Virus record (IMG/VR): IMGVR_UViG_3300035698_032497
From: a virus
Lineage: Duplodnaviria; Heunggongvirae; Uroviricota; Caudoviricetes
Length of the DNA: 64,000 nucleotides
Strand: one strand, 5' to 3'
Position 1 is the stretch's first letter. Every line of letters begins with the position of its first letter. Of the stretch, positions 12,225-63,979 are shown one piece after another. Position numbers and translations under genes: made by a program. Under the pieces are notes generated by a model that was not told the origin of the DNA, did no database searches, and saw only the letters and a list, made by a program, of their open reading frames with translations.

Positions 12225-12488
12225 ATGACCGAGCGCATCAGGATGGAAGTCGAAGTCGTTGCAGAGCGCGGTGGCAACACCTGGGACCATACCGGCACTC
12301 GCCAGAGCGGACTGTTCCTGCTGCGGGACACCGCCACGGGCAAGGAGTACACCTTCGACAGCTTCGCCAGGTGGAACGTCGGCGAGATCCGGAAGATCTC
12401 CGCGGTCGTGGACGAGCGTGGGAGCCACTTCTTCGGCGGAAAGTACATCCAGTGCATCGAGTGGCCCCGTCCGGTGAAAAAGATCTGA
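12225..12488 (+). CDS. hypothetical protein
   Basis: 88 aa, GGAG RBS; flanked by two promoter copies. Confidence 0.5.
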   Translation: MTERIRMEVEVVAERGGNTWDHTGTRQSGLFLLRDTATGKEYTFDSFARWNVGEIRKISAVVDERGSHFFGGKYIQCIEWPRPVKKI

Positions 12489-12496
12489 ACCATCAC

Positions 12497-12525
12497 TTGC
12501 TACTGACAGTGGCAGGTGATAGGTT
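12497..12525 (+). promoter_or_regulatory. class-A promoter TTGCTA-17-(TG)ATAGGTT
   Basis: TTGCTACTGACAGTGGCAGGTGATAGGTT, 31 nt before the ArdC-like ATG. Confidence 0.6.
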
Positions 12526-12556
12526 TATTTCACCTCAACCGGACAGGAGAATCACC

Positions 12557-13864
12557 ATGGCCAGCAAGACCCGCTCCCCCCGCAAGCCCCGCTCTCCCCG
12601 CAAGCCCAAGACCGACTCCGTCACCCGGGTCGCCGATCAGATCGCAGCACTCATCCGCAAGAGCCAGCAAGACGGCACGCCACTGCCCTGGCATAAGCCC
12701 TGGGCCTATGGTGAGGTCGAGTGCGACACCGAGATGGTGACCATCCGGCCCAACAGCGGGCACTACAACGGCACCAGCGGGCGCTGCTACAGCGGCCTCA
12801 ACATGTGGTTCCTGGATGCCACCGCTTCCGATCGCGGCTTTGGTGGCCAGGGCTGGACCACCTTCAAGCAGGCCCAGAAGCTGGCCTGTGCCCGCCTGAT
12901 GAAGCTCGGCTACGAGCCCGAGCGCACCAAGACGAACGACAGCGGTGACATCGTCGCCGGCTGGGGCTGGAGCTGGGACGGCGAAGGCGAGGCCCCCATG
13001 GGCGATGAGCCCTGCCCCGGCGTGCGCGGCGGAGAGAAGGGCACTCCGGTGTTCTACTGGTCCTTCTTCGAGAGCTACACCGATCGTGAAGGCAACGTCG
13101 TGCGCAAGCCCAGCAAGGATCGCATCGCACGTGGCGATCTGAAGGTCAAGACCATCCCCAGCTGCCGCGTCTACACGGTCTTCAACTGGGATCAGTGCGA
13201 TTGTCTGCCCGAGCCCCGCCAGCGCCAGTCCAAGAGCCAGGTCGTGATGCTGCCTCGGGTCAAGGATCCGGCCGCCATCGGCATCCCTCTGGAGATCGCA
13301 GAGGCCTACCCCCAGGTGGTCTCCGTCTGGGCTCGCTTCGCCGAGCTGACCGGCTGCAAGCTGTCCAACGGTGGCGACCGTGCCTTCTACCGCGGTGCCA
13401 CCCACGAGATCTGGATGCCCACCGTGGCCCAGTTCGTCTCCAAGGGTGGCGAGGATAAGGGCCTCATCCGCTACTGCTCCACCCTGCTGCACGAGATGGT
13501 GCACGCCACTGGGCACGGAACGGTCCTTGGCCGTGACCTCGGAAACCGCTTCGGCTCTGGCGCCTACGCCTTCGAGGAGCTGATCGCCGAGATCGGTTCA
13601 GCCAGCTTGTGCCACGCCCTGGGCATCGAGTCCGAGCTGCGCGAAGACCATGCCTCCTATGTGGCCTCCTGGCTGAAGAAGCTCGAGGAAGACAAGTACG
13701 GCATCCACACCGCGGCCCGCATGAGCCGTGAGGCGATGGACTGGCTGCTCGGGACGGCCGAAGGTGAGGAGGACGAGGGCGGTTCCGAGCACAACGTGGG
13801 TAGCCAAGAGCAGCACGATCCAGGGGAGCATGGGACCTCCTTGTCCTTCGTGCTACCATCATAG
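12557..13864 (+). CDS. ardC: ArdC-like antirestriction protein (DUF1738 ssDNA-binding N-domain + zincin metallopeptidase C-domain)
   Basis: PLPWHKPW motif; C-terminal LLHEMVHATGH; start at MASKTRSPRKPRSPRKP with a GGAGAA RBS. Confidence 0.7.
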   Translation: MASKTRSPRKPRSPRKPKTDSVTRVADQIAALIRKSQQDGTPLPWHKPWAYGEVECDTEMVTIRPNSGHYNGTSGRCYSGLNMWFLDATASDRGFGGQGWTTFKQAQKLACARLMKLGYEPERTKTNDSGDIVAGWGWSWDGEGEAPMGDEPCPGVRGGEKGTPVFYWSFFESYTDREGNVVRKPSKDRIARGDLKVKTIPSCRVYTVFNWDQCDCLPEPRQRQSKSQVVMLPRVKDPAAIGIPLEIAEAYPQVVSVWARFAELTGCKLSNGGDRAFYRGATHEIWMPTVAQFVSKGGEDKGLIRYCSTLLHEMVHATGHGTVLGRDLGNRFGSGAYAFEELIAEIGSASLCHALGIESELREDHASYVASWLKKLEEDKYGIHTAARMSREAMDWLLGTAEGEEDEGGSEHNVGSQEQHDPGEHGTSLSFVLPS

Positions 13865-32708: not shown

Positions 32709-35048
32709 CTACTCTTCGTCACCGAGCTCGTCGAGCTCACTGAGCTGGTCCTCGATTTCGCGGAGCACGGCTGCTGCGGTCTTGACTTTCGCGATCTTGG
32801 TGGCCGGCGCTCTGCCCTTGGAGACTTTCCGCAGCGTGCGGCGCTGGTCTCGGTCCAGGGTGAGCTCTCCGGTTCGGCTCATGGCGGTCATGGGCACCGT
32901 GATGTCCGGGTGCAGCCAGATGTGCTCTGGAGAGCTGGTGACCTCACCGATGACGTCTTCTTCTTCGACGCGCTCCTCGTCGAGCTTCTTCTTCTGGGTA
33001 ACAGTGACCAGGACCTTGGCCTTCAGCATCGCGTCCAGCGCGCTATGCTTGGAGCTGGCGATGGTGGTGCCGTAGCCTCTATCTTCGTCGGGGGCATGGA
33101 CATCCCATCTCGGGATCTGTATCCAGTCGTGGGATCCGTTGGCCACGATGGTCATGAACGATTCCGAGTACTCGGGATCCTGACTGTCTTCGTACAGCTC
33201 GAGGACCCAGTCGCCGCCATGGCTTTCGAAGTCGTTGTAGCTCACCTTTCCGATGACACCGTCGATGGACTCGGAGAGGAACTCCAGCTCGGCCTTGACG
33301 TTGGCCCAGGTCTCTTGTCCATACACGCTGGCGTCATGCTCGTTGAAGCACTCCAGCATCCACTTTGCGAACCCGAAGACCGTGAGCTCGTCCTTGTCGA
33401 CCTCGGCCATGTACTCGATGAGGTCTTGACCATGGCGGTCGGTGATGTACTTCTCCAAGAAGCTTGCGAGCTTCTTCTCCCTGCGCCCGTGCTCCTCGAA
33501 CTCCTCGTCCCCCCATTCTTCTTCATCGTAGCCATGGTCGCTGTAGAAGCTGCGCAGACCGCAGTCGTTGATGGCGGCTTCGAAGTTGTCGATGTTTTCG
33601 TAGGTCTCCTGGTACCAGGACATATTGCAGTCGAGCTCTTCCTGGATGGATAGGGACTTTTGGTTTTGCTCGAGGGTCCACTTGCTTTTCTCGTCTTCTC
33701 CGTCATCTTCGGGGATTTCGTTCTCACGCTTCATCCACTCGGGGATGGCACCGCCCGGAATGGAGAGTGGAAGCGACGGGCCTCCCAGGGCCCAGACGTG
33801 ATCGTCGAGATCGGTGTCCAGCAGGCTATCCAAGAACCACTTCATGCGCTTCGCGGCGGTCTTGTCCGTGACCTGGTGGTTGTCGTGACCCTTGAGGTCC
33901 ACGACCATGGTCCACTCGCCACGGATCGGGATTTCGCCGTCGTGGATTTTCGAGATCTTCTCTTTCTTCCACCCGTAGGGCGGGTACCAGTTCTCGTCGT
34001 CGTTCTTCTCGGTCAGCATCAGGTCGTCGCCGACATGGTTTTCGTCGATGCTCAGGGCCGCGGTACCCCATGGTTTGCCGCTGTCGTCTCGGATGGAGAA
34101 GATGATCTCGGTCCCCTCCCTGACGTAGCTCCAGTGGCCACCGACGCAGTGGCCCATGCTCTTGCCCTCTTCCTCGCACTCCTTGGCCGTCACCAGCCTG
34201 TCGATGTGCCAGCCATCGGGCCAGGTCACGACGGTGACCCCGGGGGTGACGGGGGACTTGTAGTCGGCTTGACCGATGAACTGCTGGTGCCATTCATGGC
34301 TTCTGCGCTGGACTTCTCCGATGCTCATGCCCATGATGTTCGGCCGCTCTTCCTCGATCCAGTCGATGACGTCGGGCATGCCGCCAGGTCTGTAGCCTTC
34401 CTCTTGCAAGCCGACGCGTTCGTCGAAGCCGATCCAGTCGATGTCGTTGGCGACGGGATAGCCGCGGAAGAACTCGTGGAAGTCGCCGTGACCGCTCAGG
34501 CCGTGGGGAGGAATGTAGCCCTGAGGGGCGTTTTCGTCGTGCCAGCGAACGATCCTGGCGCACTCCGAAGCCAGCCATGGAATCCACGGGTCCCAGCGGG
34601 AGTTGGCACCTGGTTCGGGTATGATGTCGGGGTGAGGCATCCAGTCTACCGGAAGCTTGACCCACGAGTTCCCTCTTCCGTGGCTCGCGTTCCATACGGA
34701 TCTGACCGCGAGTCCGCGGCGTTTGCCTGCGTGCTCGGCCATCTGTGCATGGTAGTGGGTTGGGTTTTGAATCAGGTGGCTGTCGATCTTCCATATCAGT
34801 CGGTTTCGATCTGGGATCGTGAACGCCTGGGCGTCATCCAGCAGCTCCCACAGCAGGTAGCGGGCCCTGGCGTCTTGCAGCTGCGAGAACGCCCACAGCA
34901 GCCTGGTGCGAGTCCCGGAGCGCGCCGTGGGTGCCCCACGCAGGCCGGACAAGTTCACCAGCCGGTGCCAGGAGCCCTTCATGCGTCCCTGGCCGGGAGC
35001 GAGGACGAGGGCGGAGATGATGGAGAGGGCTTGCATCGGGCGTAGCAT
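32709..35048 (-). CDS. large hypothetical protein, GHC-motif paralog family
   Basis: 779 aa; …WPDGWHIDRLV…EEGKSMGHCVGGHW…IFSIRDDSGKPWGTAAL…. Confidence 0.7.
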   Translation of the reverse strand: MLRPMQALSIISALVLAPGQGRMKGSWHRLVNLSGLRGAPTARSGTRTRLLWAFSQLQDARARYLLWELLDDAQAFTIPDRNRLIWKIDSHLIQNPTHYHAQMAEHAGKRRGLAVRSVWNASHGRGNSWVKLPVDWMPHPDIIPEPGANSRWDPWIPWLASECARIVRWHDENAPQGYIPPHGLSGHGDFHEFFRGYPVANDIDWIGFDERVGLQEEGYRPGGMPDVIDWIEEERPNIMGMSIGEVQRRSHEWHQQFIGQADYKSPVTPGVTVVTWPDGWHIDRLVTAKECEEEGKSMGHCVGGHWSYVREGTEIIFSIRDDSGKPWGTAALSIDENHVGDDLMLTEKNDDENWYPPYGWKKEKISKIHDGEIPIRGEWTMVVDLKGHDNHQVTDKTAAKRMKWFLDSLLDTDLDDHVWALGGPSLPLSIPGGAIPEWMKRENEIPEDDGEDEKSKWTLEQNQKSLSIQEELDCNMSWYQETYENIDNFEAAINDCGLRSFYSDHGYDEEEWGDEEFEEHGRREKKLASFLEKYITDRHGQDLIEYMAEVDKDELTVFGFAKWMLECFNEHDASVYGQETWANVKAELEFLSESIDGVIGKVSYNDFESHGGDWVLELYEDSQDPEYSESFMTIVANGSHDWIQIPRWDVHAPDEDRGYGTTIASSKHSALDAMLKAKVLVTVTQKKKLDEERVEEEDVIGEVTSSPEHIWLHPDITVPMTAMSRTGELTLDRDQRRTLRKVSKGRAPATKIAKVKTAAAVLREIEDQLSELDELGDEE

Positions 35049-48232: not shown

Positions 48233-49951
48233 TCAGTCCCCCAGCAGCGCTGCGGCCTTCTGCGCTACCAGCGCCAGGCCTTGGGCGGGGTCGCTCTCCA
48301 GCAGGCCGCGGACCAGGGACAGGCCCAGGGCTGTGGGATCGGAGACCGGCATGGTGGTGGCGATGCCGGGGGCGAGTGGACGTACGCCGCCCTTCTCGCC
48401 GGCCATGACGGGGTTGAACTGGAAGACGGGGGTGTCGATACCCATGCGGCGCACCGCGGCCAGCACCTCGGCCACACGCCCTGCGGGGGCGTTCTCGTAG
48501 CCGTCGGAGACGATGAACAGCACGTCTGGGGTGGCTCCTGGCGCGAGATCGGAGTCGTAGCGGAGGGCCTTGATGACGGCGGAGGCGATGGAGGTGTCTC
48601 CGGCTGGCCGGACGAGCTCGACAGGGAAGCTGTCGGCTTCCGCATCGGGTTCACCACCACAGTAGAACGTCTTGGCGCTCTCGGTGCAGGTCGCCATCAG
48701 GGTGTCGCGCATAGACAGGGCGATGGACATCGGGCGCAGCTTCTGCTCATCCGATCCGGCCATGGATTCGGAGCAGTCTACGACGATGGCCACGTGTTCG
48801 TAGCTCATGCCGAGCACGGAAGCGGCAGTGTGCGCCTTGCGGGCGATGGCCGCGGCGACGCGCTCGTCCAGCCCGACCTCGAAGGCGTGGACCCACAGCT
48901 GCACCAGGCCGAGCTTCATCGGATCGAACTCGACCTCGATGCCGGCGGACTTGGCGCGCTTCTGGACAGCACCCCGCTGACGCTGGGTCATGGAGCCGCC
49001 CTTTCCCTTGGCGTTGGTGCGGCTGGTCAGCGCGATGACGTCGTCCTTGGAGACGGTGGGGTGGTAGTGGCCCCGGATGCCCTCGAGCACCTCGGGGGGC
49101 AGCACGGTGCCCTTGGCCAAGTCGAGCCTGGCCTCGTAGAAAGCGAGGAACAGACCGGAGCGCCAGGTGTGGTGCTCCAGCTTGCGGCCGGCGATGAAGG
49201 CGAGGGCCTCGGCGAGACGGACGGGCTTGTCGATCCCGGTGTCGAGGAAGATGCCGGTGTCGACCGGATGCATTGCGCTGATGAACTGTACGAAGGCTCT
49301 CTCTCGAGGATCGCTGGGCGGGACCTGTTCCGCAGCCAGGTTGTCCAGCCAGGTCGCGGCCGAGCTGCAGATCACGCCGAACTCACGGCTCCCGAGGGCG
49401 TGCTTCAGCGCGCTCTTGATCTTGCCGCGGTACTTGACGCTCCACCAGTGCAGCTTGGTAGAGCCGATGATGGCCCCGAGGATGACCTTGCGCGTCCGCT
49501 TGTTGTTGACGCGTCGCTTGCGCAGCTCGTCGAACAGCTTGAACATGCGCTGGGGCGGCAGCTGGCTGATGAGCTTGCTGATCACCATCCACTCATCGGG
49601 GTTTACGACGTTGGTGACAGAGCTGTCGATGGGAGAGGACAGCAGGCGCAGCAGGGCCTGGCTCTTGGCGCGGTCCAGGGCCCCGGGCATGGCGGCCAGC
49701 GCGCCGTAGATGCGGCGATCGACCATGAAGGCCCGGTCGTGGACCAGGGCCTCGGCGGCATCCTGCTCTTCGCGGGTGTTGTAGGCGGTGGCGCGGCCGG
49801 TGCCGGTGCCGATGAGGTCCATCCAGGACAGGATCGCCGTGCCGGCGGCGACGGCGTTTCCGTTGGACTGGCCGGAGACCAGGGCCTGTGGTACATCGCT
49901 CAAAGGCCTGTCGAGCAGGCCCAGGGCGAGGGTCGAGATTTCGGTGTTCAT
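48233..49951 (-). CDS. rsr: TROVE/Ro60-like (Rsr-like) protein with C-terminal vWA domain
   Basis: C-terminal vWA with MIDAS DCSESM (DxSxS) in the last third, as in Ro60; alpha-helical N-terminal ~380 aa; two tRNA-like RNAs immediately upstream; start at the ATG with a GGAGGA RBS. Confidence 0.5.
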   Translation of the reverse strand: MNTEISTLALGLLDRPLSDVPQALVSGQSNGNAVAAGTAILSWMDLIGTGTGRATAYNTREEQDAAEALVHDRAFMVDRRIYGALAAMPGALDRAKSQALLRLLSSPIDSSVTNVVNPDEWMVISKLISQLPPQRMFKLFDELRKRRVNNKRTRKVILGAIIGSTKLHWWSVKYRGKIKSALKHALGSREFGVICSSAATWLDNLAAEQVPPSDPRERAFVQFISAMHPVDTGIFLDTGIDKPVRLAEALAFIAGRKLEHHTWRSGLFLAFYEARLDLAKGTVLPPEVLEGIRGHYHPTVSKDDVIALTSRTNAKGKGGSMTQRQRGAVQKRAKSAGIEVEFDPMKLGLVQLWVHAFEVGLDERVAAAIARKAHTAASVLGMSYEHVAIVVDCSESMAGSDEQKLRPMSIALSMRDTLMATCTESAKTFYCGGEPDAEADSFPVELVRPAGDTSIASAVIKALRYDSDLAPGATPDVLFIVSDGYENAPAGRVAEVLAAVRRMGIDTPVFQFNPVMAGEKGGVRPLAPGIATTMPVSDPTALGLSLVRGLLESDPAQGLALVAQKAAALLGD

Positions 49952-50039
49952 GGCGTCCTCCATCATCATGGAGGGACAGTGGGGCCGAGCTGGGGTGCCG
50001 AGGGGTCGTGAACAAAGAGCGGTTTTGACACCGCGACTT

Positions 50040-50125
50040 CCTGGGTGTGAACCAAGCGCTCTACTCTGAGCTATCTTTTCTGAAACCTCGGCCGAGCTCT
50101 CGGCCCTTGACTGTACCTCCGTTGA
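50040..50125 (-). ncRNA. degenerate tRNA-Val(CAC)-like structure inside the rsr 5' leader
   Basis: Minus-strand GGTTTCAGAAAAGA-TAGCTCAGAGTAGAGCG-CTTGG-TTCACAC-CCAGG…, followed by the GGCCGAGAGCTCGGCC hairpin. Confidence 0.3.
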
Positions 50126-50150
50126 CGCTTTCTTCTCGTGGTGTTCGTTC

Positions 50151-50186
50151 GCTACTACTGGTAGCAAGGAGAAGGGTGCACGTCAA
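50151..50186 (-). promoter_or_regulatory. class-B promoter (minus): TTGACG-17-TACCAG + hairpin GCTAC-CAGTA-GTAGC
   Basis: Minus strand reads CTCTTGACGTGCACCCTTCTCCTTGCTACCAGTAGTAGC, about 200 nt upstream of the rsr ATG. Confidence 0.5.
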
Positions 50187-50471: not shown

Positions 50472-50549
50472 TGGTGAGTGAAACGGGACTCGAACCCGCG
50501 ACCTCCGGTGCGTGACACCGGCGCTCGTGACCTACTGAGCTATTCATTC
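50472..50549 (-). tRNA. tRNA-Val(CAC)
   Basis: Minus strand GAATGAA-TA-GCTC…GAGC-CCGGT-GTCACGC-ACCGG-AGGTC-GCGGG-TTCGAGT-CCCGT-TTCACTC-A-CCA; one A·C mismatch in the acceptor stem. Confidence 0.6.
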
Positions 50550-50854: not shown

Positions 50855-52198
50855 GTGGTCGGTTTCGGTTATGATGATGGAACGATGATCGCCACCCAGC
50901 TCATCACCTCACTCTGCTCAGCTCCTGACGGGGCACGGCGTGGGGTACTGCACGAGCTCGAGAACCTCGCCAACGTGGAGGACGTCAGGCTGACGAGCAG
51001 GCCGCTGCGAAGGGTCGATGCCCGGTTCGAGTGGCTCGAGGCCCAGTTCGGTCCCTGCGTTCGCCATGTGACCGAGGCGCTACTGATCAAGCTCGGGTAC
51101 ATGGTCTTCTCGAACGACTATCCCAAGCTGGCGCCTCTGATTCCATGGATCGGGCGAGAGATCCACAGGCTGCGGAAGAGCTTCCCAGAGGCCTGGGTCT
51201 TCCTCGATGCTGCCTGTGCACTGGACGTGGCCTGGGACGATGATGGCGGGATCTTGGCGACCGTGCTCGATGCGGTCCCTCGCTTGGTCGAGGACAACCG
51301 CACGGTGATCGACTGGTACATGGAGCTGGACCGCCGCCCGGACATCCTTCGTATGGACATGAAGGACGCCTTCGACGATGCCCATGCCTGGCATGAGCAG
51401 CTGCGGGTCAGCGCAGAGAAGGGGATGCCGCGCCCGGGCGTAGTCGTGCTCAACATGGGTCCGCTGCTCGAGAGCGGAAGAGCGGATGGATGGACCCTTC
51501 AGGAGCTGGACACCCGCAAGCGCATCGAGGTCGAGGGCAAGACCATGGGCCACTGCGTCAGCGGTCTGCACTACTGGGAGGGGGTCAGGGATGGTCGGTT
51601 CCGCATCTTCTCCTTGAGGGACCCGGCTGGCCGCCCATGGGCGACGCTGCAGGTGGGCATTACAGGAGACAGTCCGGAGATCATCCAGGTCAAGGGTCGT
51701 GGCAATGTCAATGTCGCCAACTATGAGTCCGGAAAGCTCGATGGGCTGGATGATGGCGCCACCTGCATCATGATCCGGGATCTTGCGGTCATCGCTGCGG
51801 TTTTCCTCCTGACAGGCTCCACGACGATAGGGAGCGAGGAGCTCGATCTGGTCAAGGAAGCGGGAGACATGCGGATGTCTGTCGGTCTCTTCGGTCAGCC
51901 ATGGCCGGAGCTGGATGGCGAGGACGACGAAGACGAGCACGACGAGCACACGTTCCCCCAGGTCTTGGCGTGTCCAGCGTGCGGTAACGTCAACAGCGAC
52001 GATATCAGCGCCTACGTCAACACGGGGATGAGGATCCACATCTCTGCCATGGACGGTCAGCGCAGCAGGACCGTGTCCCTCTCCGCTGGAGACGGCTACG
52101 AGTGGGGAGCTCACGAGTTGAAGCTGGAGTGTCTTCAGTGTGCGCACGAGTGGGATTTCCCGGTGGACGACATCGCGCACACCTACGATGCCTGGTAG
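50855..52198 (+). CDS. large hypothetical protein, GHC-motif paralog family, C-terminal zinc ribbon
   Basis: …DGWTLQELDTRKRIEVEGKTMGHCVSGLHYW…RIFSLRDPAGRPWATLQ…; CPACG…CLQC. Confidence 0.65.
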   Translation: MVGFGYDDGTMIATQLITSLCSAPDGARRGVLHELENLANVEDVRLTSRPLRRVDARFEWLEAQFGPCVRHVTEALLIKLGYMVFSNDYPKLAPLIPWIGREIHRLRKSFPEAWVFLDAACALDVAWDDDGGILATVLDAVPRLVEDNRTVIDWYMELDRRPDILRMDMKDAFDDAHAWHEQLRVSAEKGMPRPGVVVLNMGPLLESGRADGWTLQELDTRKRIEVEGKTMGHCVSGLHYWEGVRDGRFRIFSLRDPAGRPWATLQVGITGDSPEIIQVKGRGNVNVANYESGKLDGLDDGATCIMIRDLAVIAAVFLLTGSTTIGSEELDLVKEAGDMRMSVGLFGQPWPELDGEDDEDEHDEHTFPQVLACPACGNVNSDDISAYVNTGMRIHISAMDGQRSRTVSLSAGDGYEWGAHELKLECLQCAHEWDFPVDDIAHTYDAW

Positions 52199-60648: not shown

Positions 60649-61578
60649 ATGCGGCTCATCAGCAAGTTCAAGGACTACTACGACGGCTGCCAGGCCTCCG
60701 ACCTGGAGCGTAGTCCTGTATGGGTGCGCGCCGAGGAGGTCATCGAGATCCCGAACCTGCGTGGGTCTCGCTCGCAGGACCATGGGCGTGGGCTGCACTT
60801 CAACGGGAGCACAGGAGACGCGCTGCTCGACGAGGCCCTGCCTCGCATCGTGGCCGCCAGGAGTTGGATGCCGGACATGTCCGGGTTCATCCGCTACAGC
60901 TCCTACAGCTCGTTCAGGAATGTCGGAGCCGGCACCGCCAGGGTCTTCGTCTTCTGCTGTGGGAAGCTGTACCCCTACTGGCACGCGACCGATCCGCTGA
61001 GCTCTTCGATCAGTCCGCCCAGTAAAGCATGCCAGAGCGTGGCCGAGGTGATCGCCTTCGTCGAGGGCTGGGACGAGACCAGCGTGGACGCCTGGAGCAT
61101 GGACATCGACAGGAAGAAGAACATCCTGAGGAGCCTCGAAGCACAGAAGGACGCCAAGAGCGGCAGCTTCTATGACGGCAGCCGTAACTACCCGAACAAC
61201 GAGCAGGGATGGCAGAAGTGGCAGCAGGACAACAGCACCGTGCTGCAGCGTGAGTACGACGATCTGCACCGGCACCTGGGTACGCCGCTGTTTCTGATCG
61301 TTCCGGGAACCTACGGCCGCGGCCTGTGCCTGGTGAAGAACCCCGTCTTGTCCAAGGTCGCCTTCCAGGGCATCGTCGATGCCTGGTCCATGTGGCAGTC
61401 GCTGGATTTCTTCCTCGGCAACAACATGGCCACTCAGATGGACCCGGACTCTGCTCGCACCAACCAGGGCATCATCGACGCCCACGGTTTCAATGAGCAG
61501 AGCTTCAGGAGCGTCGCCCCGGGCGAACGCAAGGCTCGTCGCAGGGAGAACCGCAAGCGCAAGCGGGACACGGCATAA
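60649..61578 (+). CDS. hypothetical protein
   Basis: 309 aa. Confidence 0.55.
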   Translation: MRLISKFKDYYDGCQASDLERSPVWVRAEEVIEIPNLRGSRSQDHGRGLHFNGSTGDALLDEALPRIVAARSWMPDMSGFIRYSSYSSFRNVGAGTARVFVFCCGKLYPYWHATDPLSSSISPPSKACQSVAEVIAFVEGWDETSVDAWSMDIDRKKNILRSLEAQKDAKSGSFYDGSRNYPNNEQGWQKWQQDNSTVLQREYDDLHRHLGTPLFLIVPGTYGRGLCLVKNPVLSKVAFQGIVDAWSMWQSLDFFLGNNMATQMDPDSARTNQGIIDAHGFNEQSFRSVAPGERKARRRENRKRKRDTA

Positions 61579-61805
61579 TGGCGATTGGAGACATGCCACG
61601 TCCAGATCCGTCTTATCCGCCTTTGTACGATATGATCGCACGGTACCTGGAACGAATTACCCTCCTCGAGGGCATCCTGGACAAGCGTGTGCCGGGTTGG
61701 CGAGAGCTCGACGAAGCCAAGCGGTTGCAGGAATGCATGCAGGTCGTCGTCGGTAATGTCAGCTTGGGGAGTGACCCTATGCCGTCCGATGGGGGAAAAC
61801 GATGA
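61578..61805 (+). CDS. small hypothetical protein
   Basis: ATAATG overlap with the upstream stop. Confidence 0.4.
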   Translation: MAIGDMPRPDPSYPPLYDMIARYLERITLLEGILDKRVPGWRELDEAKRLQECMQVVVGNVSLGSDPMPSDGGKR

Positions 61806-62044
61806 CTACCCAGCTACAGCGCATCGTCTGGAGACAGCGGGTGATGGCTATTGGGGCCACGAACTACCTGCTGAAGTTCTACATCCTCTTCGGGCGCAAG
61901 GAGCGTCTGACCTGTCCTTCCATCATCGGACTACCACTGAGGCTTCGGATGAGGCTATGGAAGCACGAGAAGGACAACCCCGTCACCGTCAGGGAGTTCA
62001 GCAACTATGGAACAAGGCGACAGACCAGCCCCGAACCGGGGTGA
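61802..62044 (+). CDS. small hypothetical protein
   Basis: ATGA overlap. Confidence 0.35.
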   Translation: MTTQLQRIVWRQRVMAIGATNYLLKFYILFGRKERLTCPSIIGLPLRLRMRLWKHEKDNPVTVREFSNYGTRRQTSPEPG

Positions 62045-62588
62045 GCCCAAGCAGGTGATCGTGATCCGGATGAAGTATCCGGACGCTGATGGCAAGCTGC
62101 GCAAGCTGCGCTTCGGCAAGCTGGCAGCACAGGTGGCTCACGCCTCGAACGCGACGCTGCTCGATCGCAAGATCGAGTTCCTCGACAAAGACGGTGAGCT
62201 CATCCCCATCAGGGGCGTGATGCTCGAGCCGACCAAGGCGGACATCGCAGAGATGACCGGGTCTTGCTCCATGCCGGACGCCGGAAACGTCGTCTTCGAG
62301 GGAGACAGGGTGTGGCCCATGATGCTGCTGCTGACCAAACCCATGGACACATGGTCCAGGGTCCGCTTCAAGAAGATCGTCCTGGTAGCCGACACCGAGG
62401 AGCAGCTGGTCAGGATCCACGAGCTCGCGCTCGAGCGAGGGCTCCCTACGGCGCTCATCGAGGACCACGGGCTCACGGAGTTCCACGGGGTCAAGACCAA
62501 GACCGCGGTCGGCATCGGGCCGGCCGAGCCAGAGCTCATCGACGAGATCACCGGGCCGGACGGCCTGGTCCCATGCAGGCTCGCATAG
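62007..62588 (+). CDS. peptidyl-tRNA hydrolase, PTH2 family
   Basis: KQVIVIRMKYPD…GKLAAQVAHAS and KIVLVADTEEQLVRIHELALERGLPTALIEDHGLTEF…TAVGIGP match the two conserved PTH2 blocks. Confidence 0.7.
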   Translation: MEQGDRPAPNRGEPKQVIVIRMKYPDADGKLRKLRFGKLAAQVAHASNATLLDRKIEFLDKDGELIPIRGVMLEPTKADIAEMTGSCSMPDAGNVVFEGDRVWPMMLLLTKPMDTWSRVRFKKIVLVADTEEQLVRIHELALERGLPTALIEDHGLTEFHGVKTKTAVGIGPAEPELIDEITGPDGLVPCRLA

Positions 62589-62641
62589 GAGTATGCAGAT
62601 CTGAATCAAAATACGGCATAATGCTGTATGAAACTCTTTTT

Positions 62642-62718
62642 CGGGGTGTAGCGCAGTCTGGTAGCGCGCCTGCTTCGGGAGCAGGAGGTCCGCGGTTCGA
62701 GCCCGCGCACCCCGACCA
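62642..62718 (+). tRNA. tRNA-Pro(CGG)
   Basis: Anticodon loop TTCGGGA. Confidence 0.85.
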
Positions 62719-62744
62719 TTTCAGACTACAGTGAAGATGACGAT

Positions 62745-62820
62745 GGGGGCGTAGCTCAACTGGGAGAGCATCTGCTTTGCACGCAGAAGGTCGAGGGTTC
62801 GATCCCCTTCGCCTCCACCA
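62745..62820 (+). tRNA. tRNA-Ala(TGC)
   Basis: Anticodon loop TTTGCAC; G3·U70. Confidence 0.85.
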
Positions 62821-62830
62821 TCATCGTCAT

Positions 62831-62907
62831 CCGGGTATAGCGCAGTCTGGTAGCGCTCCAGCTTTGGGAGCTGGATGTCACAGGTTCGAATCCTGTTACC
62901 CGGACCA
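62831..62907 (+). tRNA. tRNA-Pro(TGG)
   Basis: Anticodon loop TTTGGGA. Confidence 0.85.
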
Positions 62908-62912
62908 TCTAC

Positions 62913-62964
62913 GGGGCCCTCCCCGTTCTGTCCATGGAACGGATCGGGACACCAAGAGGGCCCC
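62913..62964 (+). other. 9-bp inverted repeat GGGGCCCTC…GAGGGCCCC (hairpin) between tRNAs
   Basis: Perfect 9-bp arms with a 34-nt loop. Confidence 0.5.
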
Positions 62965-62975
62965 TCCAGTTTCCC

Positions 62976-63048
62976 GGGGGCGTAGCTCAGTTGGTAGAGC
63001 ATCGGCCTTTTAAGCCGTGGGTCACGGGTTCGATCCCCGTCGCCCCCA
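62976..63048 (+). tRNA. tRNA-Lys(TTT)
   Basis: Anticodon loop CTTTTAA; CCA not encoded. Confidence 0.8.
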
Positions 63049-63068
63049 CCTCTCTTTCATCGTTTTGC

Positions 63069-63145
63069 TGATGCGTGGTCGAAATGGCAAAGACGCCGGG
63101 TTCTGGCCCCGGAGGTTTCAGGTTCGAATCCTGGCGCATCAACCA
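63069..63145 (+). tRNA. tRNA-Gln(CTG)
   Basis: Anticodon loop TTCTGGC; U1-A72 as in bacterial tRNA-Gln. Confidence 0.8.
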
Positions 63146-63260
63146 TGGAGCTCTCCGTCGGAGCGAGAGACAAGACCCGATGGGGACGCCCTGACGGTTG
63201 AACTGTAGGGAGGACGTTATGCCTTTCGAGGGCCAATGTCGTCACCCATCCGGCAATCAT

Positions 63261-63350
63261 CGGGCAGTAGCGCAGCATGGTAGCGCACCAGTTCGGGGTA
63301 CTGGGGGTCGCGGCTCCTGCGGAGCGCGTTGAGTCCCGCCTGCCCGACCA
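63261..63350 (+). tRNA. tRNA-Pro(GGG)-like with unusual extra hairpin in the variable region
   Basis: Anticodon arm CCAGT-TCGGGGT-ACTGG, then a GCGGCTCC-TGC-GGAGCG hairpin before the T-arm. Confidence 0.4.
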
Positions 63351-63354
63351 TTTT

Positions 63355-63540
63355 TCAGATTGTGATGCGGATCCTCATCTGTTCGTCGGTGACGAGCAGA
63401 GATCTCTTCATGGCATCCGACTCACGATTCGCGGACAGCTCGATCTCTCGTATGACTCTCCGGCCGTCGTCGGATCGTAGCCAGGCGATGATGCGGTTCT
63501 CTGCCTCTTTGCGCTTCTCTTTGGTCATCACCATGACCAT
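63355..63540 (-). CDS. small basic/acidic protein encoded antisense within tRNA array 3
   Basis: MVMVMTKEKRKEAENRIIAWLRSDDGRRVIREIELSANRESDAMKRSLLVTDEQMRIRITI; GC-rich codon third positions; GAGGTG RBS. Confidence 0.35.
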   Translation of the reverse strand: MVMVMTKEKRKEAENRIIAWLRSDDGRRVIREIELSANRESDAMKRSLLVTDEQMRIRITI

Positions 63541-63552
63541 ACCACACACCTC

Positions 63553-63628
63553 GAGGGCATAGCTCAGCCGGTAGAGCACCAGAGTGCCACTCTGGATGTC
63601 ACGGGTTCGACCCCCGTTGCCCTCTCCA
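63553..63628 (+). tRNA. tRNA-Gly(GCC)
   Basis: Anticodon loop GTGCCAC. Confidence 0.85.
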
Positions 63629-63635
63629 TTTTCTC

Positions 63636-63712
63636 GCCCGCGTAGCTCAGTTTGGCAGAGCAGGGCTTTCGTAAAGCTCGGGTCAGCGGTTCGATTCCGC
63701 TCGTGGGCCCCA
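63636..63712 (+). tRNA. tRNA-Thr(CGT)
   Basis: Anticodon loop TTCGTAA. Confidence 0.85.
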
Positions 63713-63725
63713 TCTCTTTATCTTC

Positions 63726-63804
63726 GCCGCCGTAGCTCAGTTGGCATTAGAGCACGTCATTGGTAATGACGAGGTCACGGGTTCGAGTCCCGTCGGTGGC
63801 TCCA
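63726..63804 (+). tRNA. tRNA-Thr(GGT)
   Basis: Anticodon loop TTGGTAA. Confidence 0.85.
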
Positions 63805-63819
63805 CTTCACAACGATTAT

Positions 63820-63896
63820 GGTGGCCGTAGTTCAGCAGGTAGAACACCGGATTGTGGGTCCGGTTGTCGCGAGTTCGAGTCTCGTCGGTCACCCCA
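63820..63896 (+). tRNA. tRNA-His(GTG) with encoded G-1
   Basis: Anticodon loop TTGTGGG; extra 5' G; discriminator C. Confidence 0.85.
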
Positions 63897-63903
63897 TTTC
63901 AGT

Positions 63904-63979
63904 GCGTGAGTAGCTCAGTTGGTAGAGCCTCGGCCTTCCAAGCCGTTGGTCGCGAGTTCGAGTCTCGTCTCACGCTCCA
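63904..63979 (+). tRNA. tRNA-Gly(TCC)
   Basis: Anticodon loop CTTCCAA. Confidence 0.85.

What the first reader, a model, noticed from the sequence alone, without database searches (positions are those of the whole stretch)
62007..62588. Phage-encoded PTH2-family peptidyl-tRNA hydrolase immediately upstream of tRNA array 3
The 193-aa ORF matches both conserved PTH2 blocks: K.VIV.R…GK…AQ.AHA and KIVLV…GLPT.LI.D.G.TEF…AVGIGP. PTH2 is normally archaeal or eukaryotic; bacteria use the unrelated Pth.

Such a gene next to an 11-tRNA array suggests the phage manipulates or protects the translation apparatus. It could rescue ribosomes stalled on phage mRNAs or counter tRNA-targeting defences.
Basis: partly seen in the sequence, partly recalled or inferred. 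Interest (0 to 1): 0.55.

Follow-up and report, generated by a model that had tools for sequence, protein, structure and literature searches.

The report
Phage PTH2 peptidyl-tRNA hydrolase beside tRNAs
The gene is a real PTH2-type peptidyl-tRNA hydrolase (an enzyme that frees tRNAs stuck to unfinished peptides) sitting just upstream of a tRNA gene array in a probable giant phage, an arrangement already described in many large phages, so it is a sound but ordinary finding.

Summary
The 193-aa ORF at 62007-62588 (+) is real. It has a strong coding signature (GC3 0.87) and is a clear PTH2 homologue: Pfam PF01981 E=2e-20; AlphaFold core pLDDT above 90; the top 14 PDB fold hits are all Pth2. The residues I recall as catalytic in S. 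solfataricus Pth2 (K18, D86, T90) align to K38, D153 and T157, which are invariant in 67 relatives.

A tRNA array starts 53 nt downstream on the same strand, with no predicted terminator. There are 11 tRNAs in the window and more beyond it. A 68%-identical relative keeps the same gene order with a 21-nt gap.

None of this is new in kind. PTH2 is annotated in Myrna, RaK2, XacN1, Atu_ph07 and phiM12. It has been reviewed for jumbo phages and reported inside mycobacteriophage tRNA arrays. One motif scan found 319 IMG/VR contigs with a relative; of 72 non-identical loci among the best 80, 35 (49%) had tRNA or tmRNA genes within 5 kb.

The only distinctive feature is a ~56-residue insertion after helix α1. 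It is low-confidence in both models, less constrained than the core, and lies at a loop whose length varies across the family.

Most likely this is an active tRNA-recycling enzyme expressed with the element's tRNAs. An anti-defence role is possible but untested. Phage origin is likely but not proven.

The parts
62007..62588 (+). PTH2-family peptidyl-tRNA hydrolase gene (193 aa plus stop)
   Evidence: ORF; GC3 0.87; Pfam PF01981 E=2.1e-20; phrog_1866 E=6.7e-18; AF2 model with fold hits to PDB Pth2 only
62007..62048 (+). 14-residue N-terminal extension (MEQGDRPAPNRGEP) ahead of strand beta1; overlaps the end of the upstream 80-aa ORF
   Evidence: Conserved at protein level in P0002 (MNQQSDRPEPNRDEP), dN/dS 0.16; absent from archaeal Pth2
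62049..62165 (+). N-terminal PTH2 block (aa 15-53): beta1, a short MKYPDADGKLRK hairpin insertion, and helix alpha1 carrying G37-K38
   Evidence: Alignments; model strands E15-21, E23-25, E31-33 and helix H36-52, pLDDT about 90-97
62118..62120 (+). Codon for K38, aligned to K18 of S. solfataricus Pth2
   Evidence: Invariant in 67 sequences; register against 1xty_A
62166..62336 (+). Lineage-specific insertion of about 56 residues (aa 54-110) between helix alpha1 and helix alpha2
   Evidence: Absent from archaeal Pth2 and much shorter in most relatives; pLDDT about 40-63 in two models; 43% identity and dN/dS 0.55 against P0002, versus 80% and 0.30 for the core; only the first ~22 residues are shared with P0071/P0082
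62337..62588 (+). C-terminal PTH2 block (aa 111-193) with the EDHGLTEF active-site loop and the GIGP motif
   Evidence: Best stretch in Pfam and PDB matches, aa 112-184; pLDDT 88-98
62463..62477 (+). Codons D153-H-G-L-T157, aligned to D86...T90 of S. solfataricus Pth2
   Evidence: D153, G155 and T157 invariant; register against 1xty_A; sequence read
60649..62044 (+). Three co-oriented upstream ORFs (309, 75 and 80 aa) whose stops and starts overlap each other and the PTH2 start (1, 4 and 38 nt); probable translationally coupled operon
   Evidence: Coordinates; GC3 0.86 for the 309-aa ORF and 0.77 for the 80-aa ORF, the 75-aa ORF not being listed by the filter; the same order 309 aa, 74 aa, PTH2 in the relative L086; only hit is phrog_4243, unknown function, for the 309-aa protein
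62589..62641 (+). 53-nt AT-rich spacer (34% GC) between the PTH2 stop and the first tRNA; no terminator-like site
   Evidence: the equivalent spacer is only 21 nt in L086
62642..63979 (+). tRNA array 3: Pro(CGG), Ala, Pro(UGG), Lys, Gln, Pro(GGG), Gly, Thr, Thr, His, Gly; continues past the window end
   Evidence: ARAGORN; Rfam confirms 10 of 11; same order in L086 and continuation in L001; 10 of 11 encode CCA

Best explanation
The ORF encodes a catalytically competent PTH2-type peptidyl-tRNA hydrolase carried by a ~385-kb element that is most likely a jumbo phage.

[quoted passage not shown] This returns free tRNA to the pool.

The gene ends a run of overlapping, co-oriented genes and is followed after 53 nt, with no predicted terminator, by a same-strand tRNA array. 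It is therefore probably transcribed together with the tRNAs. The element would then supply both a near-complete tRNA set and the capacity to recycle those tRNAs during heavy late translation.

Shown: family membership, fold, conservation of the active-site positions, purifying selection, and conserved gene order. Inferred: enzymatic activity, co-transcription, physiological role, and phage identity.
For: Family and fold:
- Pfam PTH2 E=2.1e-20, above the gathering score.
- A profile of the protein and 17 relatives hits all PDB Pth2 chains at 1e-28 to 1e-40 over their full length.
- AF2 model has mean pLDDT 83 with the core above 90. Foldseek's top 14 PDB hits are all Pth2 or Bit1, with TM-score 0.76-0.85 normalised to the target for the 13 crystal-structure chains. 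The best viral hits are annotated phage peptidyl-tRNA hydrolases.

Active site and selection:
- K38, D153 and T157 align to S. solfataricus K18, D86 and T90 and are invariant in 67 relatives.
- dN/dS is 0.30 for the core against a 68%-identical homologue.

Context:
- Same-strand tRNA array begins 53 nt downstream, with no terminator-like site.
- The relative L086 keeps the order 309 aa, 74 aa, PTH2, tRNA-Pro/Ala/Pro/Lys/Gln... with a 21-nt gap.
- Of 72 non-identical IMG/VR loci with a relative, 35 have tRNA or tmRNA genes within 5 kb, 29 have three or more, and 9 have one within 100 bp. 89% of those genes are on the PTH2 strand.
- Literature reports the same association (PMC5966550; PMC7824862).
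Against: - No activity was measured here, and I found no experimental test of any phage PTH2 in the held literature.
- The scores are below NCBIfam's equivalog cut-offs for archaeal Pth2 (74.7 against 126; 57 against 82).
- A ~56-residue insertion of unknown structure interrupts the domain.
- The active-site residue assignment rests on my memory of the S. solfataricus mutagenesis study, which I could not retrieve.
- Co-transcription is inferred only from spacing and the lack of a predicted terminator. The AT-rich 53-nt spacer could instead hold a separate promoter.
- Adjacency is not universal: Myrna and XacN1 PTH2 genes have no annotated tRNA within 4 kb.
- No capsid, portal or terminase was found in the ~85 kb inspected.
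Confidence: 0.75

Rival explanations
1. Same chemistry, but the selected role is counter-defence. The enzyme would strip N-acetyl-aminoacyl-tRNAs made by GNAT toxins (TacT/AtaT/ItaT type), or release peptides from tRNAs stranded after host anticodon nucleases or mRNA cleavage. This works alongside the replacement tRNAs encoded next door. It is not mutually exclusive with housekeeping recycling.
For: Bacterial Pth reverses TacT acetylation of aminoacyl-tRNA (PMC9241777). Iyer et al. propose PTH2 acts in rescue after tRNA cleavage in jumbo phages (PMC7824862). PTH2 genes sit among tRNA and sometimes tmRNA genes in many viral contigs. The window also carries anti-restriction (ArdC-like) and methyltransferase genes.
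Against: Nothing in the sequence discriminates this role from general recycling. No defence or anti-defence assay exists for any phage PTH2. The neighbouring genes are ORFans that give no hint.
Confidence: 0.2
2. The insertion and N-terminal extension change substrate or partner. Examples are restriction to the element's own tRNAs, ribosome-bound action, or a related deacylase activity, making this a functionally new PTH2 variant.
For: The spacing from G37-K38 to the DxGxT motif (D153) is 116 residues, against about 68 in archaeal Pth2 and a median of 79 in 195 relatives. The first half of the insertion is conserved with P0002 and partly with P0071/P0082. Relatives elaborate other loops, including a CxxCxGxG pair.
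Against: The insertion lies at a loop whose length varies widely in the family: 21 of 195 relatives have spacing of 96 or more. Its second half is unconserved even at 68% overall identity, with dN/dS 0.55. It has pLDDT 40-63 in both models. It begins at the C-terminal end of helix alpha1, while K38 is at the N-terminal end.
Confidence: 0.1
3. The gene is carried by a megaplasmid or another giant extrachromosomal element rather than a phage, so the 'phage' framing is wrong.
For: No capsid, portal or terminase in ~85 kb. ArdC-like and two PcfJ-like proteins are typical of conjugative plasmids. The contig is absent from IMG/VR, where the best match is 42% identical. DnaE is equally distant from phage and plasmid or chromosomal copies.
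Against: - Phage tail lysozyme domain, a baseplate-hub PHROG hit, Dda-like helicase and RusA.
- HNH endonuclease near the tRNA arrays.
- NAD-salvage genes downstream.
- Few proteins match any known family, and there are more than 40 tRNA genes.
- The nearest PTH2 relatives lie on IMG/VR viral contigs of 74-619 kb with similar tRNA arrays.
Confidence: 0.12
4. The protein is a non-catalytic PTH2-fold protein, acting by binding only, as described for non-enzymatic roles of eukaryotic Pth2/Bit1.
For: Score below the NCBIfam equivalog cut-offs and a large insertion.
Against: All family-invariant positions, including K38, D153 and T157, are retained. The core is under purifying selection. The non-enzymatic partners (ubiquitin-like domains, apoptosis factors) are eukaryotic; this last point is from my own knowledge.
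Confidence: 0.03

Closest known systems
Archaeal Pth2 (P. horikoshii 1WN2/2D3K, M. jannaschii 2ZV3, A. fulgidus 3ERJ, S. solfataricus 1XTY) and human PTH2/Bit1 (1Q7S)
   Same: Same Pfam family, and the same alpha/beta fold (TM-score 0.77-0.85 normalised to the target). The GK...AQ.AHA and D.G.T...GIGP motifs and the aligned K/D/T active-site positions are shared.
   Different: - 193 aa against 115-121 aa.
- A 14-residue N-terminal extension, an ~8-residue hairpin insertion before helix alpha1, and a ~56-residue insertion after it.
- One extra residue in the TEFHGV.T loop.
- Below the NCBIfam equivalog cut-offs.
- Carried by a bacterial mobile element rather than an archaeal or eukaryotic genome.
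Annotated phage PTH2 proteins: Agrobacterium phage Atu_ph07, Mycobacterium phage Myrna gp36 and cluster C/J relatives, Xanthomonas phage XacN1 ORF295, Klebsiella phage RaK2 ORF188, Sinorhizobium phiM12 group, Ralstonia RsoM2USA
   Same: All are PTH2 genes in large, tRNA-rich phages. In cluster C mycobacteriophages the gene lies inside the tRNA array unit in about 96% of arrays (PMC5966550). [quoted passage not shown]
   Different: Only 31-53% identical, and mostly over the C-terminal block alone. Those proteins are ~115-155 aa without the long insertion. Myrna and XacN1 copies are not directly next to annotated tRNAs.
Metagenomic relative P0002 (194 aa, 68% identical) on contigs up to 180 kb
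   Same: Same length, same insertion and N-terminal extension, and the same gene order, including the order of the downstream tRNAs.
   Different: The second half of the insertion is unrelated in sequence. The spacer to the first tRNA is 21 nt rather than 53 nt. One small upstream ORF is missing.
Bacterial Pth1 (E. coli Pth)
   Same: Same reaction and cellular role: recycling tRNA from dropped-off peptidyl-tRNA. Pth1 also removes N-acetyl groups' carriers made by TacT-type toxins (PMC9241777).
   Different: Unrelated sequence and fold, with a different catalytic set (His/Asp/Asn) (PMC4929431). No similarity to the query was detected in any search.

Membership tests
PTH2 (Pfam PF01981) | Significant match to the family profile above the curated gathering score | tested here: met
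   73.5 bits against a cut-off of 23, E=2.1e-20. The match is split into two stretches by the insertion.
PTH2 (Pfam PF01981) | Pth2 alpha/beta fold (four-stranded sheet packed by helices) | tested here: met
   AF2 core pLDDT above 90. The top 14 Foldseek PDB hits are all Pth2 or Bit1; TM-score to target is 0.76-0.85 for the 13 crystal chains and 0.48 for the NMR model 1rzw.
PTH2 (Pfam PF01981) | Active-site residues equivalent to S. solfataricus Pth2 K18, D86 and T90 (residue roles recalled from Fromant et al. 2005; paper not retrievable here) | tested here: met
   K38, D153 and T157 align to K18, D86 and T90 of 1xty_A and are invariant in 67 relatives.
PTH2 (Pfam PF01981) | Hydrolysis of peptidyl-tRNA or N-acyl-aminoacyl-tRNA; complementation of pth(ts) | not testable with these tools
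   Needs biochemistry or genetics. No published test of a phage PTH2 was found.
Archaeal Pth2 equivalog (NCBIfam NF003314 / TIGR00283) | Score at or above the curated equivalog cut-off | tested here: not met
   74.7 against 126 bits and 57 against 82 bits. It is therefore a PTH2-family member but not an equivalog of the archaeal enzyme by NCBI's criterion.
Phage PTH2 genes associated with tRNA arrays (as in cluster C mycobacteriophages; jumbo phages) | PTH2 gene within or adjoining a cluster of same-strand tRNA genes | tested here: met
   The first tRNA begins 53 nt downstream and 11 same-strand tRNAs follow. The arrangement is conserved in L086. 35 of 72 related viral loci have tRNA or tmRNA genes within 5 kb.
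Phage PTH2 genes associated with tRNA arrays (as in cluster C mycobacteriophages; jumbo phages) | Carrier is a phage (virion structural and packaging genes on the same replicon) | tested here: inconclusive
   A tail-lysozyme domain and a baseplate-hub PHROG hit were found, but no capsid, portal or terminase in ~85 kb. ArdC-like and PcfJ-like genes are also present.
Bacterial Pth1 (PF01195) | Similarity to the Pth1 profile or fold | tested here: not met
   No Pth1 hit in the Pfam, NCBIfam, PDB sequence or fold searches.

The most novel reading that the evidence does not exclude
The clade-specific insertion (aa 54-110) and N-terminal extension adapt this PTH2 to a special substrate or partner. 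Candidates are the element's own tRNAs, ribosome-bound peptidyl-tRNA, or N-acetyl-aminoacyl-tRNAs and broken tRNAs produced by host toxins. On this reading the gene is an anti-defence factor co-transcribed with replacement tRNAs, not a housekeeping recycler.
Probability: 0.12. Interest if true: 0.6.

Novelty: new member of a known kind. Interest (0 to 1): 0.2.

Why it matters
The finding adds one more divergent example to a documented pattern: large tRNA-rich phages carry the archaeal/eukaryotic-type PTH2 among their tRNA genes. The useful point is general rather than specific to this locus. The association is frequent: 49% of the related viral loci examined have tRNA or tmRNA genes within 5 kb, and five also have a tmRNA. 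Yet I found no experimental test of any phage PTH2. If the enzyme proved to counter tRNA-targeting or tRNA-acylating defences, this locus, with its tight link to a tRNA array, would be a reasonable test case. As it stands it is a correct annotation, not a discovery.

Tried and rejected
- **Near-identical DNA in GenBank phages:** none found, so the element has no close cultured relative.
- **Insertion alone against the 5.8-billion-protein collection:** no candidates, not even the parent protein. The result is uninformative. A local phmmer search against the 213 fetched relatives showed that only P0002, and weakly P0071/P0082, share part of the insertion.
- **Second AlphaFold run restricted to long-insertion relatives:** the insertion did not improve, pLDDT 40-63. 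No fold could be assigned to it.
- **The 309-aa gene upstream:** no hit in GenBank phages or in PDB sequences; only phrog_4243, of unknown function.
- **Attempts to prove phage identity:** Pfam and PHROG scans covered about 65 proteins from the window and flanks. They gave replication, methylase, anti-restriction, lysozyme, RusA, baseplate-hub and NAD-salvage hits, but no capsid or terminase. The ORF giving the baseplate-hub hit was not located.
- **DnaE as a marker:** it is about 33-36% identical to phage, plasmid and chromosomal copies alike.
- **Sigma-70 promoter in the 53-nt spacer:** none passed the scan.
- **Papers defining Pth2 catalytic residues:** not held. The residue roles are cited from memory, but the numbering fits the 1xty alignment exactly.
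- **Pth1, pseudoenzyme and shadow-ORF readings:** rejected on the evidence given above.

Full report

Yes. The ORF listing returns a 193-aa ATG-initiated ORF at 62007..62588 (+), exactly as reported. No other in-frame start codon lies between 62007 and the family-conserved K15-Q16, so the start is well defined. GC at the three codon positions is 0.65/0.40/0.87 in a 61.8% GC window. That is a strong coding signature, and the 203-aa antisense ORF is the usual high-GC shadow.

ARAGORN finds 30 tRNAs in the window. Eleven of them run from 62642 to 63979 on the same strand as the ORF, and Rfam confirms ten of those eleven at gathering score. The window is identical over its last 11,994 bases to a 385,225-bp metagenomic contig (ENA ERZ27316532 k141_1542414). 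On that contig the array continues beyond the window with tRNA-Glu and seven more tRNA calls, one of undetermined type.

**2. What is the protein?**

- **Sequence.** Pfam PF01981 (PTH2) matches at E=2.1e-20, 73.5 bits against a cut-off of 23. PHROG phrog_1866 matches at 6.7e-18. The archaeal Pth2 equivalog models of NCBIfam match at 6e-21 and 2e-15 but fall below their strict cut-offs.
- **Solved structures, by sequence.** The best PDB matches are Pth2 from P. horikoshii, M. jannaschii, A. fulgidus, T. acidophilum and S. solfataricus, and human Bit1. A profile of the protein and 17 relatives matches these chains end to end at 1e-28 to 1e-40.
- **Model and fold.** An AlphaFold2 model built on 67 sequences has mean pLDDT 83, with the core above 90. 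Foldseek's top 14 PDB hits are all Pth2 or Bit1. TM-scores normalised to the target are 0.76-0.85 for the 13 crystal-structure chains and 0.48 for the NMR model 1rzw.
- **Active site.** In the profile alignment, S. solfataricus residues K18, D86 and T90 fall on query K38, D153 and T157. I recall these as the residues shown by mutagenesis to be needed for activity, but I could not retrieve that paper. All three positions are invariant in the 67-sequence alignment, together with G37, H45, K123, G155, T166, G171, P172 and T182.
- **Selection.** Against the 68%-identical homologue P0002, the core has dN/dS 0.30.

The protein is therefore a PTH2-family member with an intact set of conserved residues.

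**3. What is unusual about it?**

The match is split. The N-terminal block covers residues ~15-53 and the C-terminal block residues ~111-184. About 56 residues lie between helix α1 and helix α2 that archaeal Pth2 lacks. There is also a 14-residue N-terminal extension and an ~8-residue insertion (MKYPDADG...) before α1; several relatives share the latter.

The long insertion is not a recognisable domain.
- Two AlphaFold runs give it pLDDT 40-63, with only a small hairpin and one helix.
- Its first half is conserved with P0002, and weakly with P0071/P0082. Its second half is unrelated even in P0002.
- The region has 43% identity and dN/dS 0.55, against 80% and 0.30 for the core.

Across 195 fetched relatives, the spacing from the GK motif to the DxGxT motif has a median of 79 and ranges from the 60s to 152. 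It is about 68 in archaeal Pth2 and 116 in the query. Twenty-one relatives have 96 or more. This is a length-variable loop that the query's lineage has expanded, not a unique architecture. It starts at the C-terminal end of α1, whereas K38 sits at the N-terminal end, so it need not obstruct the active site; this last point is inference.

**4. Context**

The gene is the last of four co-oriented ORFs (309, 75, 80 and 193 aa) whose boundaries overlap by 1, 4 and 38 nt. A 53-nt AT-rich spacer (34% GC) follows, and then tRNA-Pro(CGG). The scan finds no terminator-like or promoter-like site there.

The relative carrying P0002 (L086) has the same order: a 916-aa protein, a 309-aa protein, a 74-aa protein, PTH2, then tRNA-Pro, Ala, Pro, Lys, Gln, Pro, Gly, Thr, Thr, His, Gly, Glu. 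Only 21 nt separate the stop codon from the first tRNA. This makes co-transcription with the array the simplest reading, but it is inferred.

The upstream genes have no informative homologues.

**5. How general is the arrangement?**

- tblastn finds the protein's relatives in 31 GenBank phage records, many already annotated as peptidyl-tRNA hydrolase. These include Myrna gp36, Baka, Phabba, Sandalphon, XacN1, Atu_ph07, phiM7/M12/M19/N3 and Xoo-sp13.
- Structure search of viral proteins returns Atu_ph07, Myrna, RaK2, CcrBL9, VH7D, and even giant-virus and fowlpox PTH2.
- A single-motif scan of IMG/VR found 319 viral contigs encoding a relative.
- Among 72 non-identical loci, 35 have at least one tRNA or tmRNA within 5 kb, 29 have three or more, 9 have one within 100 bp, and five have a tmRNA. 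251 of the 283 genes are on the PTH2 strand.
- I could not run a matched random-window control. The density of 0.3-0.5 tRNA per kb is, to my knowledge, well above typical phage genome-wide averages.
- Adjacency is not universal: Myrna and XacN1 show no annotated tRNA within 4 kb.

**6. What is already published?**

- Simoliunas et al. 2013 noted a Pth2 in RaK2 and the archaeal/eukaryotic oddity (PMC3622015).
- Morgado and Vicente 2018 reported a PTH2-like gene in ~96% of cluster C mycobacteriophage tRNA array units and linked it to ribosome rescue (PMC5966550).
- Iyer et al. [quoted passage not shown] They proposed that it clears peptidyl-tRNA after tRNA cleavage and discussed its evolutionary origin (PMC7824862).

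I found no experimental test of any phage PTH2.

**7. Is the carrier a phage?**

Probably. Evidence in favour:
- Size of 385 kb, more than 40 tRNA genes, and few proteins matching any known family.
- An HNH endonuclease near the tRNA arrays.
- A phage tail lysozyme domain, a baseplate-hub PHROG hit, a Dda-like helicase and RusA.
- A phage-type DnaE (phrog_405, 2e-265).
- NAD-salvage genes just downstream.

Evidence against:
- No capsid, portal or terminase was seen in the ~85 kb inspected.
- ArdC-like and PcfJ-like proteins are also plasmid-typical.
- The contig is not in IMG/VR.
- DnaE is equidistant from phage and cellular copies.

I put phage identity at about 0.85.

**8. Mechanism**

The best-supported explanation (confidence 0.75) is an active peptidyl-tRNA hydrolase that releases tRNA from dropped-off peptidyl-tRNA. 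It would be expressed with the element's own tRNA set to keep tRNAs available during intensive translation.

An anti-defence emphasis is compatible with the same chemistry and is not excluded. The enzyme could remove N-acetyl-aminoacyl-tRNAs made by GNAT toxins, as bacterial Pth does for TacT (PMC9241777). It could also clear products of tRNA cleavage, as Iyer et al. propose. I give this about 0.2.

A changed specificity conferred by the insertion is possible but weakly supported (about 0.1). A non-catalytic role is unlikely (about 0.03).

**9. Verdict**

The gene is a new, divergent member of a known kind of phage gene in a known kind of context. Interest is low, at 0.2. The only lead beyond the ordinary is the expanded loop, together with the zinc-finger-like second insertion in related proteins.

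Noticed in passing
L007:4989-5606 (+); proteins P0071 and P0082: Related PTH2 proteins (205 and 203 aa) on a 288-kb IMG/VR contig carry a second insertion right after the active-site TEF motif. It contains two CxxCxGxG motifs (CSSCEGTG...CEPCQGTG), the pattern of the DnaJ zinc-finger domain. A zinc finger inserted next to a PTH2 active site may be more unusual than the window's own protein.
   Followed up: partly
window 63261-63350 (+): ARAGORN calls tRNA-Pro(GGG) as 90 nt, with extra bases in the variable region. Rfam does not report it at gathering score. The equivalent tRNA in the relative L086 is a normal 77 nt. It may be a degenerate or insert-bearing tRNA.
   Followed up: partly
window 63355-63579 (-): A small ORF (74 aa as listed; GC3 0.75) lies on the opposite strand inside the tRNA array, between tRNA-Pro(GGG) and tRNA-Gly. 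It is also called as a gene on the 385-kb contig. Its function is unknown.
   Followed up: no
L022, L041, L062, L065, L066 (IMG/VR loci): Phage tmRNA genes lie within a few kb of the PTH2 gene (58 bp away in L065). This suggests a recurrent phage module of tRNAs, tmRNA and PTH2.
   Followed up: partly
window 50011-50080 (-): Rfam reports a tRNA (42.5 bits) that ARAGORN does not call. It lies inside the 644-aa ORF at 48233-50167 (-), close to the lone minus-strand tRNA-Val at 50472-50549.
   Followed up: no
window 62642-63979: Ten of the eleven tRNA genes in array 3 encode their 3' CCA. The ARAGORN call for tRNA-Lys(UUU) at 62976-63050 ends in ACC.
   Followed up: partly
window 12371-13864 (+), 32709-35048 (-), 50855-52198 (+): The window holds an ArdC-like anti-restriction protein with a zincin peptidase domain and two PcfJ-like proteins. 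These are more typical of conjugative plasmids, and they sit in an element otherwise resembling a jumbo phage.
   Followed up: partly
L001:15209-20329 (just beyond the window end): A cluster of NAD-related genes follows the tRNA region: a NAMPT-like protein, an NAD synthetase and a NUDIX/NrtR-like protein.
   Followed up: partly
L089:13634-20238 (just before the window start): Two very large ORFans (1139 and 1056 aa) with no Pfam or PHROG hit sit next to the DnaE gene, followed by a DnaJ-domain protein. Their function is unknown.
   Followed up: partly
proteins P0069, P0072, P0118, P0132 and others: Many PTH2 relatives are 220-337 aa long, with the PTH2 domain at the C-terminus and an uncharacterised N-terminal extension of 120-250 residues.
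   Followed up: no
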